From the UHGV virus genome UHGV-1560991: a stretch of 11,913 nt of DNA; one strand, given 5' to 3'. Position numbers and translations under genes: made by a program. Below, piece by piece: positions 3,203 through 11,913 of this stretch (within the stretch, counting starts at the first letter, position 1; each line of letters begins with the position of its first letter). The notes below the pieces were generated by a model that ran no database searches, was not told the origin of the DNA, and saw only the letters and a list, made by a program, of their open reading frames with translations. This DNA is from a virus.

Positions 3203-3279
3203 GTGGCATTAGCTCAGCTGGACAGAGCAACTGCCTTCTAAGCGGTTGGTCGCAGGTTCGAATCCTGCATGCCACGCCA
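3203..3279 (+). tRNA. tRNA-Arg (anticodon UCU), argU-like
   Basis: 77-nt cloverleaf read by hand: acceptor GTGGCAT/ATGCCAC, D-stem GCTC/GAGC, anticodon stem ACTGC/GCGGT (one G-U pair), loop CTTCTAA giving anticodon TCT, T-arm GCAGG-TTCGAAT-CCTGC, discriminator G, encoded CCA. Close to E. coli argU as I remember it. Confidence 0.9.
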
Positions 3280-7587: not shown

Positions 7588-8343
7588 TTAAACTGCTAGT
7601 TGCAATTGCATTTCAAAGCGGTCGCGTTGTTCACAATACGCAAGAGAACCAGGGCTATTGTGTGCCTCAATCCGTTCTACCATTAATGCTGCGCGTGTCT
7701 CTTTACTTGCAGGTGCATAAGCCCCAGACCAGGCTTTATCAATACCGATGTTTCGAGCGACGTTCGTACTATCTGCGCTGGCTAAGGGTAATTTTGTGAA
7801 TATCAGCGGATTTAACATGCGCAATCCATGTAGTTTCGTAACCGGCTGACCATGCCCATCAACAATGTGACGAATCAGGTCTTTCATTCTGGCTACCGCA
7901 AGAGTTGGGCGCTTTACGTCATAGTCGCCACAACTACCGATAGCCACTCGCGGAAACTCATTGCACAAATGAATAAATCGCGCGTCACTTTCATTCATGT
8001 GCCACACTGGAACGCCAGCTAGTTTTCCGTGAGGCCACTCATTCAGAAGCGCATCATTTTCCTCCTCTCCGCCATCAATAATATCCGGGATAATGGCAAA
8101 ATCGAATCCTGGGTGATTCTTCCAGCGAGCAACAAACTCGTAGTAATCGCTCCAGTCGATTTTGTTTTTGCCAGCTGCTTTCCAGGCGGTGAATGCACCG
8201 TTGTCCAGCGCGAACGACTGACAGTATTCAGCCGCGAGATTGATCTGGCCTGAATGCGCAAAACTGATAAACGCATGTCGCCCTTTCCATGCTCTCATTG
8301 CGCACGTATCAGGAGTAATAGGCCCACCGTGGTAGTGAATCAT
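7588..8343 (-). CDS. tRNA-guanine transglycosylase (TGT) superfamily protein, DpdA-like (candidate DNA 7-deazaguanine transglycosylase)
   Basis: By-eye alignment to E. coli Tgt motifs as I remember them: LDNGAF vs TDSGGFQ, FAIIPDIID vs IVMIFDECT, AIGSCGDY vs AVGGLAVGE, LHGLRML vs LMGVGKP, ASADSTNVARN vs FDCVMPTRNARN (nucleophile Asp region). No C-terminal CxCxxC...H zinc motif. Start placed at MIHYHGG (8343), which has AAGGAGAG upstream and sits 1 nt after the Ea22-like stop. The track's longer ORF starts at 8376. Confidence 0.55.
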   Translation of the reverse strand: MIHYHGGPITPDTCAMRAWKGRHAFISFAHSGQINLAAEYCQSFALDNGAFTAWKAAGKNKIDWSDYYEFVARWKNHPGFDFAIIPDIIDGGEEENDALLNEWPHGKLAGVPVWHMNESDARFIHLCNEFPRVAIGSCGDYDVKRPTLAVARMKDLIRHIVDGHGQPVTKLHGLRMLNPLIFTKLPLASADSTNVARNIGIDKAWSGAYAPASKETRAALMVERIEAHNSPGSLAYCEQRDRFEMQLQLAV

Positions 8344-8344
8344 C

Positions 8345-8896
8345 TCACTCTCCTTTGATGCGAATGCCTGTTGCAATGCTGTTTATGATGCTGTCAGTGC
8401 ATGGGGTAGAAAGCTGGGCATCTCCAGCAATTCTCATGACCTCAACATCTGCATATCGAATACCGAGGTGTATCAGACCGGCTATACCTGACTTAAGCCG
8501 AGCATTTTCCATAAACAGATCCTTTGCACGCTGTTTTTCTGCCTCAAGCTCAACGCGCAACTTCCCTACCGTTAACGCAATATCCTCGTTCTCTTGGTCG
8601 CGGCGTTTGATGTATTGCTGGTTTCTTTCCCGTTCATCCAGCAGTGCCAGCACGGTAGCCGGATTGGCTGCGGCGATGAATTCAGCATTGGCCTGCTGTT
8701 CTATTTGGAAATCTTCATCGAAACCGCTTTCAGGATGCGCTCCTTCAATTCTGCAAATGGGAATATATCCAGCAGCCTCGCGATGAATTAGCGCATCATC
8801 ACCATCAAATCGGCCCTCTCCATATTCGAGCGACCACTCGCCACACGTTGCTTTTTCTGCCTTAGCACGCAGTGCCTGATAATCAATCTTGCTCAC
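8345..8896 (-). CDS. Ead/Ea22-like family protein
   Basis: The N-terminus MSKIDYQALRAKAEKATCGEWSL is the characteristic Ea22-like opening, followed by a coiled-coil-like central region. Start overlaps the upstream stop (8893/8896). Confidence 0.75.
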   Translation of the reverse strand: MSKIDYQALRAKAEKATCGEWSLEYGEGRFDGDDALIHREAAGYIPICRIEGAHPESGFDEDFQIEQQANAEFIAAANPATVLALLDERERNQQYIKRRDQENEDIALTVGKLRVELEAEKQRAKDLFMENARLKSGIAGLIHLGIRYADVEVMRIAGDAQLSTPCTDSIINSIATGIRIKGE

Positions 8897-10111: not shown

Positions 10112-10912
10112 TTACTTGATAAATCCTGCCGCCTTTCCCCGCCTGTATTCCTCCATCAGCCACTGCGCCGGTGTTATTCCCCCCAGGGTGGCGGCGTTAG
10201 GCATGCACCCGAAACTTCGCCCTGGCGGGTGGTAAACGTCTCTCCCTGTGTCCGGAGGCGTACTCATGGGTTCTGGCTTTGCCTGTATGCTGATCACCGG
10301 ATCGGGTATCTGCTGTCCGGAAGCCACCTTTTTCGCCCAATCATCGAGCAGCCTGCGCGCGTGTTTCTCAACCTCAATCTCGCTAAGCTGGCGCTGATAC
10401 ATTGCACGGCGGGTGTCACATACAACCCAGTACATAACCGGATGCCGCCACGGGAATCTTTCGGGACCACCAGGATATAAACTTTTTTCCTTGCTGTACC
10501 GGTGAAACTCCGCCATCACATCGTCAATGGTGACGCCAAGAACCATCTTGCTGTCTTTACACCACTTGATGAATTGCCCTGGCGACGGCCAGAACGGAGA
10601 TTCACTGGCGCGGGCGTGGCGCATACCAGCAGAAACCTGTTCACGGGTTCGGATCCCCCCTTCGGCAAACGCAGCAATCCACTGCTGTTTTGCAGCAGCT
10701 TCCTGCTCTGGCGTCTTCAGGTTGGTTACCACTGCCGCTGGAAACAGTTGTTTCAGCTGTTTGAAAAGGGCATCAACAAGCCTCTCTGCTGACATGTTCA
10801 CCACGTTGTCATTGTTGGTGTACTGATGCTCATAACCTGACATGCGAGAAAGGGCTTCTCCGTCACGGTTTTGTATCGCGGTAAAAACGTTGTTCACAAG
10901 AAATCCTCCCAT
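10112..10912 (-). CDS. Replication protein P-like (DnaB helicase loader, lambda P family)
   Basis: Collinear similarity to lambda P as I recall it: GIRTREQVSAGMRHARASESPFWPSPGQFIKWC vs GITTMEQVNAGMRVARRQNRPFLPSPGQFVAWC, plus an earlier LFPA vs TFPA match. Alternative GTG start at 10897 has GGAGGA 6 nt upstream and forms a GTGA overlap with the O-like stop. Confidence 0.85.
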   Translation of the reverse strand: MGGFLVNNVFTAIQNRDGEALSRMSGYEHQYTNNDNVVNMSAERLVDALFKQLKQLFPAAVVTNLKTPEQEAAAKQQWIAAFAEGGIRTREQVSAGMRHARASESPFWPSPGQFIKWCKDSKMVLGVTIDDVMAEFHRYSKEKSLYPGGPERFPWRHPVMYWVVCDTRRAMYQRQLSEIEVEKHARRLLDDWAKKVASGQQIPDPVISIQAKPEPMSTPPDTGRDVYHPPGRSFGCMPNAATLGGITPAQWLMEEYRRGKAAGFIK

Positions 10913-11733
10913 GCTTCAGGGCTGTTCCAGTGCGGAACGTTGTTATCAGGTAATGTTGATTGCTTCTGTCTGCTAATCTGCAGCCGCCTTGCCAGCTTCT
11001 GCTCCCACTGTGCCTGATGGTATGCCTTACCCTCAGCCATCCAGTAAATTCTGAACTCTGCAAGTTCCTGTGCCGTTGGCAGACTGTCCAGGTAGATCCC
11101 CTGCAATGAGCTTTTCCGAAGAAAGTCATCTGATGGCTGCCATTGTTCATGCATGACAAATTTGCCTAATTGCCCTGGCCCACCAGGAGGAACAAAGTTA
11201 TTCATCACGGCGTTGTTTGCGCCGGGGTCATGAGGCACAGAATCCCCGGTTTTTGTCCTGCTCTCCCTCTCTTGGTTAAATGACTGGTTATATGACTGGT
11301 TCTGGATCCCGTTTTTGGGATCATTCAACATCCCGTTTTTGGGATCATTCAACATCCCGTTTTTGGGATCATTCAACATCTCGTTTTTGGGTATATTCCC
11401 GTTTTCGGGAACATTACCGTTTTCGGGTTCATTACACCCATCTAGGTTGCCTTTAATGTTCCCTTTTTTGGTTATATTAAGAGAGAAAACCCGCACTCTT
11501 TTCGTCGCTCCCTTTCTCTCTCCGGTATCTGAAATAAGCCCCATTTTCATGAGCGATATAAGCCCGGCCTGTACGGTTTTTTTATTCAGGCAAGTGTCTT
11601 TAACGAGGCGTTCTATGCTGGGGTAGCAGAGGTTATATTCATCGGCTCTGTCAGCCATCGAGAGCAGTATGAGCTTTAATGACGAGCTACCTGGATCTGT
11701 CTCCCAGGCCCAATCTGTTGCATGTCTGCTCAT
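10894..11733 (-). CDS. Replication initiator O-like protein (N-terminal HTH DNA-binding domain, internal iteron-encoded repeats)
   Basis: 279-aa ORF immediately upstream of the P-like gene. The coding sequence contains tandem iteron-like DNA repeats that translate to PKNGMLND three times. The N-terminal region looks like a helix-turn-helix domain. Confidence 0.8.
   Translation of the reverse strand: MSRHATDWAWETDPGSSSLKLILLSMADRADEYNLCYPSIERLVKDTCLNKKTVQAGLISLMKMGLISDTGERKGATKRVRVFSLNITKKGNIKGNLDGCNEPENGNVPENGNIPKNEMLNDPKNGMLNDPKNGMLNDPKNGIQNQSYNQSFNQERESRTKTGDSVPHDPGANNAVMNNFVPPGGPGQLGKFVMHEQWQPSDDFLRKSSLQGIYLDSLPTAQELAEFRIYWMAEGKAYHQAQWEQKLARRLQISRQKQSTLPDNNVPHWNSPEAWEDFL
11303..11435. repeat. 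Iteron array (putative phage origin of replication) inside the O-like gene
   Basis: Two exact 24-bp tandem units CATCCCGTTTTTGGGATCATTCAA (11329..11352, 11353..11376), a near-copy ending at 11328 and a degenerate fourth unit at 11377..11400, then two CCGTTTTCGGG units about 19 bp apart. Each unit has TCCC...GGGA dyad symmetry, like the lambda ori iteron TCCCTCAAAACGAGGGA. Confidence 0.75.
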
Positions 11734-11748
11734 GATTAATCTCCGCTA

Positions 11749-11913
11749 TCAGCTTGAATGTTGTGGGGAGGAATTAATCATGATCTGCTTAATCTCTGCC
11801 CTGATGCGACGGTTTGATTCCATGGTGCACTCAACACAGTGTCCGTTGTAAACCCAGCGTTCACTGTCATGTCCGTGCTTACCCAGATCGGGCGATGTGA
11901 TGAGACAGAGATC
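11749..11913 (-). CDS. Partial ORF (C-terminal 54 codons) of the gene upstream of O, possible Cys/His-containing regulator
   Basis: Minus-strand frame open from the window edge to a TGA at 11751..11749. Translation is ...CLITSPDLGKHGHDSERWVYNGHCVECTMESNRRIRAEIKQIM.... No family recognised. The overlapping plus-strand ORF (11669..11851) looks less protein-like. Confidence 0.3.
   Translation of the reverse strand, partial: DLCLITSPDLGKHGHDSERWVYNGHCVECTMESNRRIRAEIKQIMINSSPQHSS

What the first reader, a model, noticed from the sequence alone, without database searches (positions are those of the whole stretch)
11303..11435. Iteron origin embedded in the O-like gene, each iteron carrying a GATC site
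Four GATC sites fall at the same phase of successive iterons (11305, 11319, 11343, 11367), spaced 14, 24 and 24 bp. That is two helical turns apart and on the same face, the arrangement associated with Dam methylation and SeqA binding at oriC and P1 ori. Each iteron also has TCCC...GGGA dyad symmetry like lambda ori iterons. This suggests methylation-sensitive control of phage origin firing. The same DNA encodes the PKNGMLND x3 repeat linker of the initiator.
Basis: partly seen in the sequence, partly recalled or inferred. Interest (0 to 1): 0.55.

Follow-up and report, generated by a model that had tools for sequence, protein, structure and literature searches.

The report
Phage replication origin with GATC-flanked iterons
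This is very probably the lambda-style replication origin of a phiV10-like E. coli phage, sitting inside its own initiator gene; the GATC sites are real, but they come mostly from one duplicated repeat unit, and a role in methylation control is plausible but unproven.

Summary
GATC lies at 11305, 11319, 11343 and 11367. Three of these sit in three identical 24-bp tandem units, so they are one site copied. Only 3 of 7 iterons carry GATC. The 14 and 24 bp spacings are off helical phase, not "two turns, same face". The cluster alone is not significant (P=0.28 in a 39-kb genome).

The window is a phiV10-like (Uetakevirus) phage. The array lies in the linker of a 279-aa initiator (HTH_36 N-terminal domain, DnaT-like C-terminal domain), upstream of a lambda-P-type helicase loader. 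The anatomy matches a lambda-type origin: seven TCCC-N6-GGGA iterons followed by three 12-mers. Both elements recur in distant homologues from Enterobacterales to Acinetobacter and Desulfovibrionaceae. Rare codons and repeats read in different frames show the constraint is on DNA.

The methylation idea gains some comparative support. Iteron GATCs occur in 16 of 25 loci from Dam-positive host orders, against 2 of 45 elsewhere. They sit at the 12-mer-proximal end of the array. Host and phylogeny are confounded.

Verdict: new member of a known kind. The origin call is about 0.78 likely; a Dam/SeqA effect about 0.4.

The parts
10894..11733 (-). Initiator (O-like) gene, 279 aa; equivalent of phiV10 gp43
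   Evidence: ORF and translation. Pfam HTH_36 at aa 18-67 (E 1.9e-10) and DnaT domain at aa 192-260 (E 1.2e-15). PHROG 1032 'replication initiation protein', E 8e-112. 96% identical DNA in phiV10, annotated as replication initiation protein.
11470..11733 (-). N-terminal winged-helix-type domain (about aa 1-88), inferred iteron-binding module
   Evidence: HTH_36 hit. It matches PHROG profiles 678 and 345 ('replication initiation O-like'), which lambda O's N-terminal domain also matches. It is the part conserved in all homologues that share the iteron core.
11460..11473 (.). Iteron 0 (degenerate, TCCCTTTTTTGGTT on the + strand); no GATC
   Evidence: Member of repeat family D2 at 74% identity. 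It lies in the least stable 30-mer of 10900-11880, at 11452-11481.
11415..11428 (.). Iteron 1 (TACCGTTTTCGGGT), 18-bp unit; no GATC
11397..11410 (.). Iteron 2 (TCCCGTTTTCGGGA), 18-bp unit; no GATC
11379..11392 (.). Iteron 3 (TCTCGTTTTTGGGT), diverged 24-bp unit; no GATC
11355..11370 (.). Iteron 4 (TCCCGTTTTTGGGA) with overlapping GATC at 11367-11370
   Evidence: Identical 24-bp unit; GATC position.
11331..11346 (.). Iteron 5 (TCCCGTTTTTGGGA) with overlapping GATC at 11343-11346
11305..11322 (.). Iteron 6, the terminal iteron: an 18-bp unit with 6-bp perfect inverted arms (GATCCC-N6-GGGATC) and a GATC on both flanks (11305, 11319)
   Evidence: This double-GATC terminal iteron is present in every close relative examined, including those with the fewest 24-bp units.
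11273..11308 (.). Three 12-mers (TGGTTAAATGAC, TGGTTATATGAC, TGGTTCTGGATC on the + strand; CAGAACCAGTCA-type on the coding strand): candidate unwinding or helicase-loading element. The third 12-mer contains the GATC at 11305.
   Evidence: TRF period 12. 11268-11297 is the third least stable 30-mer of the region. A (G/T)AAYC repeat follows the last iteron in 44 of 48 homologous loci, and in 34 of them the spacing is not a multiple of 3.
10954..11160 (-). C-terminal DnaT-like domain (aa 192-260) of the initiator
   Evidence: Pfam PF17948. E. coli DnaT C-terminal domain structures 4ou6, 6aep and 9zbt, E 4e-20 to 7e-21.
10112..10912 (-). Lambda-P-type helicase loader gene, overlapping the initiator stop
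   Evidence: Pfam Phage_lambda_P, E 5.1e-57. PHROG 109 'P-like helicase loader', E 9e-93.

Best explanation
Bases 11273-11473 are the vegetative replication origin of a phiV10-like temperate phage. It is built on the lambda plan and lies inside the linker-coding part of the initiator gene.

INFERRED MECHANISM. Dimers of the initiator's N-terminal winged-helix domain bind the seven TCCC-N6-GGGA iterons, whose spacings of 24, 24, 24, 18, 18 and 45 bp resemble lambda's 20-24 bp. The resulting nucleoprotein complex stresses the adjacent three 12-mers, which open. The DnaT-like C-terminal domain, together with the lambda-P-type loader encoded next door, brings in host DnaB.

THE GATC SITES. They belong to the iteron subclass nearest the 12-mers. 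Their regular phase follows from recent tandem duplication of one 24-bp unit whose Asp-Pro codons read GAT-CCC. I put about 0.4 on the GATCs being functionally used in Dam-positive hosts. The likelier routes are methylation easing opening at the iteron/12-mer junction, or methylation altering initiator affinity, with SeqA occupancy of hemimethylated daughters possible. I put about 0.55 on their being tolerated passengers.

SHOWN: the anatomy, the homologies, the DNA-level conservation and the host association. INFERRED: binding, opening, loading and any methylation effect.
For: GENE CONTEXT.
- O-like initiator plus P-type loader in the early-right position.
- The window's N-terminal domain and lambda O's N-terminal domain hit the same PHROG profiles, 678 and 345.
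- The C-terminal domain matches DnaT structures.

ORIGIN ANATOMY.
- Dyad iterons lie mid-gene, like lambda's annotated iterons ATCCCTCAAAACGAGGGA.
- The array is flanked by two of the three least stable 30-mers in 1 kb.

DNA-LEVEL CONSTRAINT.
- All 6 Pro codons in the linker are CCC, which is 11% of Pro codons in the other window genes. All 7 Lys codons are AAA.
- The core CCCAAAAACGGGA recurs in homologues from Enterobacterales, Vibrio, Pseudoalteromonas, Acinetobacter, Marinomonas, Halodesulfovibrio, Burkholderiaceae and Sphingomonadales, while the encoded residues vary.
- A second (G/T)AAYC repeat follows the last iteron in 44 of 48 loci, and in 34 its spacing is not a multiple of 3.

MODULARITY.
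- Edwardsiella phage GF-2 combines this N-terminal domain and these iterons with a lambda-O-type C-terminal domain. The iterons therefore travel with the N-terminal domain.

COPY NUMBER.
- Across the 89 copies examined (the window and 88 relatives), the 24-bp unit occurs 1 to 5 times; 2 is the mode.

GATC.
- Iteron GATCs occur in 16 of 25 loci from Dam-positive orders against 2 of 45 others. Array density is 8.5 against 1.45 per kb, with backgrounds of 3.5 and 4.6 per kb.
- Among unique iterons, 21 of 98 against 2 of 110 carry GATC. The control tetramer GTAC is equally common in both groups, 20 of 98 and 31 of 110.
- GATC iterons cluster at the 12-mer end: mean normalised rank 0.78, with none of 5000 permutations reaching it.
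- GATC occurs within 60 nt after the last iteron in 14 of 25 against 2 of 45 loci.
Against: - No experiment here or in the searched literature maps this origin.
- BLASTP finds no similarity to lambda O, and the Pfam family is HTH_36, not lambda O's.
- The 12-mer region is only about 60% A+T, much less A+T-rich than lambda's unwinding region.

AGAINST GATC FUNCTION.
- Four of the seven iterons lack GATC.
- Lambda's origin has none.
- Vibrio members of the family have none in their iterons, although Vibrio is Dam-positive and one of the phages encodes a Dam-family methylase.
- The spacings are off-phase for SeqA.
- The cluster is not significant genome-wide.
- The host association is confounded with initiator phylogeny: Fisher P rises from 2e-5 for 80%-identity clusters to 0.17 for 50%-identity clusters.
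Confidence: 0.78

Rival explanations
1. The origin is real, but the GATCs are passengers. GAT-CCC (Asp-Pro) happens to abut the TCCC arm in one iteron unit, and slippage or unequal exchange copied that unit. Methylation has no measurable effect on firing.
For: - The three GATC-bearing units are 100% identical.
- Unit copy number varies from 1 to 5 among near-identical phages.
- Four of seven iterons lack GATC.
- The lambda origin works with no GATC.
- Vibrio relatives have no GATC in their iterons.
- The cluster is not significant: P=0.28.
- The spacings are off-phase.
Against: - Enrichment is confined to Dam-positive host lineages, while GTAC and the background GATC density do not differ.
- GATC appears at three different offsets: GATCCC, GGGATC and CGGATC. 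It also appears separately in the 12-mer region, which suggests repeated gain or maintenance.
- The GATCs have a positional bias toward the 12-mer end.
Confidence: 0.55
2. One reading: the iteron GATCs make origin firing methylation-sensitive. SeqA would sequester hemimethylated daughter origins as at oriC and P1 oriR. Alternatively the initiator would need methylated sites, as RctB does at V. cholerae chromosome II.
For: - The comparative association with Dam-positive hosts and the location next to the putative unwinding element.
- Precedents: chromosome II iterons carry an internal GATC that must be methylated for RctB to bind (PMC3401445).
- The oriC 13-mers carry methylation sites, and SeqA binds the unwinding element (PMC5043065).
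- The GATC overlaps the TCCC/GGGA arm. The N6-methyl group would therefore lie next to bases that are probably contacted (inference).
Against: - The geometry claim is wrong: 14 and 24 bp are 120 and 103 degrees off the same face, whereas SeqA favours about 10 or 20 bp.
- Not every iteron has a site.
- Sequestration would be counter-productive for a burst-replicating phage (inference).
- No experimental data exist.
- The phylogenetic confound remains.
Confidence: 0.4
3. The repeats exist only because the protein needs a repetitive flexible linker (PKNGMLND). The DNA has no cis function, and the origin lies elsewhere.
For: The repeats are in frame and encode a low-complexity Asn/Pro/Gly/Lys linker between two folded domains.
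Against: - The linker uses the rare CCC Pro codon exclusively and AAA exclusively for Lys.
- Across the family the DNA core is kept while residues change, for example P to T or S through ACC or TCC.
- The downstream 12-13-mer repeats fall in different reading frames in 34 of 48 loci.
- The iterons co-vary with the N-terminal domain, not the C-terminal domain.
Confidence: 0.04

Closest known systems
Bacteriophage lambda ori-lambda (four iterons inside gene O, with the O and P proteins)
   Same: - Dyad iterons lie in the middle of the initiator gene, in the inter-domain linker.
- The half-sites are very similar: lambda ATCCCTC-AAAACG-AGGGA against ATCCC-AAAAAC-GGGAT here.
- Unit spacing is similar: 20-24 bp against 18-24 bp.
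- A P-type helicase loader follows immediately downstream, in the early-right operon position.
- The literature reports the same plan for P22 and L (PMC8022706).
   Different: - The initiator is not detectably similar to O by BLASTP and falls in Pfam HTH_36, with a DnaT-like C-terminal domain in place of the O C-terminal domain. Only shared PHROG profiles link the two N-terminal domains.
- The arms are 4 nt rather than 6 nt, and there are seven iterons rather than four.
- Three 12-mers stand in place of a strongly A+T-rich tract.
- Lambda's origin contains no GATC.
Vibrio cholerae chromosome II origin (RctB 11/12-mer iterons with an internal GATC)
   Same: GATC is physically part of initiator-binding repeats in a Dam-positive host. 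Methylation could therefore gate initiator binding (PMC3401445).
   Different: - There, every iteron carries the GATC internally and methylation is shown to be required.
- Here only the 3 iterons nearest the 12-mers carry it, at the edge of the dyad, and nothing has been tested.
- The initiators are unrelated.
E. coli oriC 13-mers and P1 oriR (GATC-rich unwinding elements, SeqA sequestration)
   Same: - A short repeat of about 12-13 bp lies next to the initiator sites.
- In this family's Dam-positive members, GATCs concentrate at that junction.
- Methylated GATC is thought to ease opening, and SeqA binds there (PMC5043065).
- The P1 details rest on my own knowledge.
   Different: - The 12-mer consensus (AGAAYCnnnCA) is not the oriC 13-mer (GATCTnTTnTTTT).
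- GATC density is far lower: 4 sites against 11 in oriC (the oriC count is from my own knowledge).
- The spacing is not on one helical face.
phiV10 gp43/gp44 and the epsilon15-like (Uetakevirus) replication modules
   Same: 96% DNA identity and the same array; annotated as replication initiation protein plus replication protein P.
   Different: - phiV10 has two 24-bp units (3 GATC) and three full 12-mers, whereas the window has three units (4 GATC).
- No origin is annotated in the record.
- SPN1S, an epsilon15-like phage, shares only the C-terminal domain and lacks these iterons.

Membership tests
Lambda-type origin embedded in the initiator gene | An array of four or more dyad-symmetric repeats in the mid-gene linker between the DNA-binding domain and the C-terminal domain | tested here: met
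   Seven TCCC-N6-GGGA-type repeats at 11307-11473, falling between HTH_36 (aa 18-67) and the DnaT domain (aa 192-260).
Lambda-type origin embedded in the initiator gene | Initiator homologous to lambda O | tested here: inconclusive
   BLASTP finds nothing, and Pfam assigns HTH_36, not the lambda O family. Both N-terminal domains do hit PHROG 678 and 345, 'replication initiation O-like'.
Lambda-type origin embedded in the initiator gene | An easily melted region directly downstream of the iterons | tested here: inconclusive
   The three 12-mers at 11273-11308 are about 60% A+T, and 11268-11297 is the third least stable 30-mer in 1 kb. The element is conserved family-wide, but it is not strongly A+T-rich as lambda's is.
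Lambda-type origin embedded in the initiator gene | A P-type helicase loader encoded immediately downstream | tested here: met
   10112-10912 matches Phage_lambda_P with E 5.1e-57.
Lambda-type origin embedded in the initiator gene | The initiator binds the repeats, and the fragment confers origin activity | not testable with these tools
   Needs EMSA or footprinting and an origin-plasmid or marker-frequency assay.
Dam/SeqA-controlled origins (oriC, P1 oriR, V. cholerae oriII) | GATC density at the origin clearly above genome expectation | tested here: not met
   Four in 66 bp, but P(at least 4 in 70 bp)=0.28 for a 39-kb genome of the same density. Three of the four are copies of one unit.
Dam/SeqA-controlled origins (oriC, P1 oriR, V. 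cholerae oriII) | GATC sites conserved in relatives living in Dam-positive hosts | tested here: met
   They are kept in all 88 close relatives. They occur in 16 of 25 distant loci from Dam-positive orders against 2 of 45 others. Caveat: confounded with phylogeny, and absent from Vibrio members.
Dam/SeqA-controlled origins (oriC, P1 oriR, V. cholerae oriII) | Neighbouring GATCs on about the same helical face (about 10 or 20 bp apart), suited to SeqA | tested here: not met
   The spacings of 14 and 24 bp give 120 and 103 degree offsets. The preferred spacings come from PMC2912659 and PMC2691817.
Dam/SeqA-controlled origins (oriC, P1 oriR, V. cholerae oriII) | Every initiator site contains the GATC (chromosome II type) | tested here: not met
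   Three of seven iterons.
Dam/SeqA-controlled origins (oriC, P1 oriR, V. cholerae oriII) | Replication depends on dam or seqA | not testable with these tools
   Needs genetics in dam and seqA hosts.

The most novel reading that the evidence does not exclude
This widespread initiator family (HTH_36 N-terminal domain, CCCAAAAACGGGA iterons, AGAAYC 12-13-mers) may have repeatedly recruited GATC into the iterons nearest the unwinding element, and into that element itself, specifically in hosts that have Dam. Methylation state (full, hemi or none) would then gate assembly of the initiator complex or strand opening. That could, for example, limit re-initiation on freshly replicated phage DNA and contribute to the switch from theta to rolling-circle replication. 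It would be a phage counterpart of oriC and chromosome II control.
Probability: 0.2. Interest if true: 0.65.

Novelty: new member of a known kind. Interest (0 to 1): 0.4.

Why it matters
Origins of temperate phages outside the classic lambda and P22 models are rarely mapped. This one can be read from the sequence, and the same two-part design (iterons plus 12-13-mers) recurs in prophages from Enterobacterales to Acinetobacter and Desulfovibrionaceae. That gives a ready handle for annotating origins and for building origin plasmids from phiV10-type phages, which are used as E. coli O157 reporter and delivery vectors.

If the association between host Dam and GATC holds up, it would be a natural comparative case of a mobile replicon tuning its origin to the host's methylation system. 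It is testable with simple dam and seqA genetics. If it does not hold up, the finding is an ordinary lambda-style origin.

Tried and rejected
- BLASTP of the initiator against lambda O: no similarity. I therefore did not file it as an O homologue on sequence alone.
- Full-text search for the iteron string in either orientation: only unrelated primer hits. Searches on phiV10/epsilon15 plus origin found no description of this origin.
- Rfam over the whole window: nothing in the region. An RNA explanation was dropped.
- Promoter scan of 10800-11913: none found. The two 'terminator-like' hits at 11316 and 11340 are simply iteron dyads followed by the T5 run on the non-coding strand.
- GATC cluster significance: not significant genome-wide.
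- A phage-encoded Dam as support. None of the window ORFs scanned against Pfam or PHROGs matched a DNA methyltransferase family. The phiV10 methyltransferase lies outside the window's equivalent region and is MT-A70 family, not Dam family. Vibrio phage H20 has a Dam-family enzyme beside its initiator yet GATC-free iterons. This line therefore gives no support.
- Single-linkage clustering of N-terminal domains with local identity merged everything. I replaced it with average linkage on global identity.
- The antisense ORFs over the array (11280-11456 and 11315-11626, + strand) were treated as artefacts of the repeat. The 'membrane protein' annotated there in YDC107_2 accompanies a disrupted initiator gene.
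Full report
WHAT THE WINDOW IS

All long ORFs run on the minus strand. The 840-nt gene at 10894-11733 is 93-97% identical at the DNA level to the gp43 gene of Escherichia phage phiV10 and its relatives in the genus Uetakevirus. The array region is found in 422 of 5426 complete E. coli genomes.

The 279-aa product has a Pfam HTH_36 domain at aa 18-67 and a DnaT DNA-binding domain at aa 192-260. It matches PHROG 1032, 'replication initiation protein', with E 8e-112. Its C-terminal part matches solved E. coli DnaT C-terminal domains with E about 1e-20. The next gene, 10112-10912, is a lambda-P-type helicase loader (PF06992, E 5e-57). Further downstream lie nin-like genes, terminase and a PHROG 'head-tail adaptor' gene. 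The finding therefore sits in the replication module of a temperate podovirus.

CHECKING THE OBSERVATION

The four GATC sites and their 14, 24 and 24 bp spacings are correct.

The array is real. Three 100% identical 24-bp units occupy 11306-11377. They are followed by a diverged unit at 11379, two 18-bp units at 11397 and 11415, and an outlier at 11460. That makes seven iteron cores of the form TCCC-N6-GGGA.

Only the three identical units carry GATC. The fourth site, at 11305, is the mirror flank of the last iteron, which reads GATCCCAAAAACGGGATC on the coding strand. 'Each iteron carrying a GATC' is therefore wrong, and the shared phase is a direct consequence of tandem duplication.

At 10.5 bp per turn, 24 bp is 2.29 turns and 14 bp is 1.33 turns. 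Neighbouring sites are thus 100-120 degrees apart around the helix, not on one face. SeqA binding in vivo peaks at spacings near 10 and 20 nt, and in vitro it needs roughly the same face (PMC2912659, PMC2691817). The 24-bp step equals the iteron step, and lambda's own iterons start 20, 24 and 23 bp apart.

The statistics give no support on their own. The window holds 46 GATC against 45.9 expected, and phiV10 holds 153 against 151.8. A run of at least 4 sites in 70 bp occurs by chance somewhere in such a genome with P=0.28.

IS IT AN ORIGIN?

Four lines of evidence say the constraint is on the DNA, not on the peptide.

1. Codons. All six Pro codons in the linker are CCC, which makes up 11% of Pro codons in the other window genes. 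All seven Lys codons are AAA.

2. Deep conservation. A scan of one genome per species returned 80 loci with a related N-terminal domain. The core CCCAAAAACGGGA, at up to three mismatches, recurs two to eleven times just after that domain. The hosts include Enterobacterales, Vibrio, Pseudoalteromonas, Acinetobacter, Marinomonas, Neptuniibacter, Sulfuricella, Burkholderiaceae, Halodesulfovibrio and Sphingomonadales. The encoded residues drift while the DNA core is kept.

3. A second element. Directly after the last iteron come two or three copies of a (G/T)AAYC-containing 12-13-mer. In the window these are three 12-mers at 11273-11308. At least two copies are present in 44 of 48 loci where the junction could be located automatically. 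In 34 of those the spacing is not a multiple of three, so the repeat is read in different frames. The array is bracketed by the first and third least stable 30-mers of the surrounding 1 kb.

4. Modularity. Edwardsiella phage GF-2 joins this N-terminal domain and these iterons to a lambda-O-type C-terminal domain. That is the classic argument that the iterons belong to the N-terminal domain.

The window's N-terminal domain and lambda O's N-terminal domain also both match PHROG profiles 678 and 345, although BLASTP sees no similarity between them. Lambda's iterons, ATCCCTCAAAACGAGGGA, look like a longer-armed version of ATCCCAAAAACGGGAT.

The literature records the same gene-internal iteron plan for lambda, P22 and L (PMC8022706). 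It describes lambda iterons as binding O dimers next to an A+T-rich region (PMC5043065, PMC7466680). I found no paper describing this particular iteron.

I conclude, with confidence of about 0.8, that 11273-11473 is the phage origin. Binding, opening and DnaB loading are inferred by analogy.

VARIATION AMONG CLOSE RELATIVES

I compared the window with 88 related copies: four phage records, 80 IMG/VR contigs, lambda as an outgroup, and three divergent E. coli prophages. The 24-bp GATC unit occurs once (BP9, M9682-C1), twice (the mode; 72 of the 85 initiator genes read are 271 aa, the size that goes with two units), three times (the window and six others), four times (L008) or five times (L016). 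The 18-bp and 12-bp units also vary in number. The terminal double-GATC iteron is always present. The identity of the units and their copy-number variation point to slippage or unequal exchange.

DOES THE GATC MEAN ANYTHING?

Against a role:
- The points above on phase, spacing and statistics.
- Lambda's origin has no GATC between positions 316 and 1078 of the fetched locus.
- Vibrio members of the family have GATC-free iterons (CCCGAAAACGGTAC), even though one of them encodes a Dam-family methylase two genes upstream.

For a role, the comparative picture is stronger than I expected:
- I classed Enterobacterales, Vibrionales and Alteromonadales as Dam-positive. This fits the report that GATC appears in oriC motifs only for taxa that have Dam (PMC7174414).
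- On that classification, 16 of 25 loci have at least one GATC overlapping an iteron, against 2 of 45 loci from other hosts.
- Array density is 8.5 against 1.45 GATC per kb. The flanking DNA has 3.5 and 4.6 per kb.
- Among unique iteron sequences, 21 of 98 against 2 of 110 carry GATC (Fisher P=7e-6). The control palindrome GTAC is equally common in both groups, at 20 of 98 and 31 of 110.
- The GATC occurs at three different offsets: GATCCC, GGGATC and CGGATC.
- It is concentrated in the iterons nearest the 12-mers. The mean normalised rank is 0.78, and none of 5000 permutations reached it.
- GATC also appears within 60 nt after the last iteron in 14 of 25 Dam-positive loci against 2 of 45 others. 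It often takes the form AAAGATCT, where Acinetobacter relatives have AGAATCTAAAAAT.

Caveats:
- Host type and initiator phylogeny are confounded. The cluster-level Fisher P is 2e-5 at 80% identity, 0.008 at 60% and 0.17 at 50%.
- My iteron caller is ad hoc.
- The Dam status of a few genera (Marinomonas, Wohlfahrtiimonas and others) was assumed.

Precedents exist. Chromosome II iterons of V. cholerae need a methylated internal GATC for RctB binding (PMC3401445). The oriC 13-mers carry methylation sites thought to ease opening and are bound by SeqA (PMC5043065).

I put about 0.4 on a measurable Dam or SeqA effect.

VERDICT

In kind, this is a new member of the well-known lambda-type class of origins embedded in the initiator gene. 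The family-wide two-part architecture and the association between host Dam and GATC are the parts worth following up. They are cheap to test with an origin plasmid in dam and seqA hosts.

Noticed in passing
window 3203-3279 (+): A tRNA-Arg(TCT) gene lies on the strand opposite all the phage genes, between the terminase and the 'head-tail adaptor' gene (Rfam 67.5 bits; ARAGORN). It presumably supplies the rare AGA codon.
   Followed up: partly
window 7588-8376 (-): This 262-aa ORF has no Pfam hit but matches PHROG 887, 'queuine tRNA-ribosyltransferase', with E 5.6e-102. It is DpdA-like, which suggests 7-deazaguanine modification of phage DNA (my own knowledge). Such a modification could interact with GATC methylation or restriction.
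   Followed up: no
L087 901-1743 (Edwardsiella phage GF-2): The initiator is a natural chimera. It has the window-type N-terminal domain and GATC-bearing iterons (AATGATCCCAAAATTGGGA, three copies) fused to a lambda-O-type C-terminal domain, followed by a P gene.
   Followed up: yes
L088 61-624 and 901-1869 (Vibrio phage H20): A Dam-family methyltransferase (PF05869, E 5e-40) is encoded two genes upstream of a homologous initiator. That initiator's five 24-bp iterons (CCCGAAAACGGTAC) contain GTAC but no GATC.
   Followed up: partly
L094, L099, L100, L123, L141, L166, L086, L107, L088, L104 (about 30-45 nt after the last iteron): AAAGATCT recurs at the third 12-13-mer position in several Enterobacterales and Vibrio lineages. 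Acinetobacter relatives have AGAATCTAAAAATAAAAA at the same place. The window itself lacks this motif.
   Followed up: partly
L003 (PP488543.1, phage BP9, 134937-135728 of 138295); also PP350014.1 (PH444, 114913 bp): A phiV10-type replication module sits near the end of a record classed as a 138-kb Vequintavirus, and another sits in a 115-kb unannotated record. Both look like chimeric assemblies or contamination with a Uetakevirus.
   Followed up: no
L171 28372-29022 (phiV10p33; outside the window's equivalent region): The DNA methyltransferase annotated in phiV10 belongs to the MT-A70 family (PF05063, E 2.6e-21), not the Dam family. Its target sequence is unknown.
   Followed up: partly
L004 (CP025713.1, YDC107_2): The initiator gene is annotated as truncated (510 nt), with a 'putative membrane protein' called antisense across the iteron array. 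This is probably a frameshift or an annotation artefact of the repeats.
   Followed up: no
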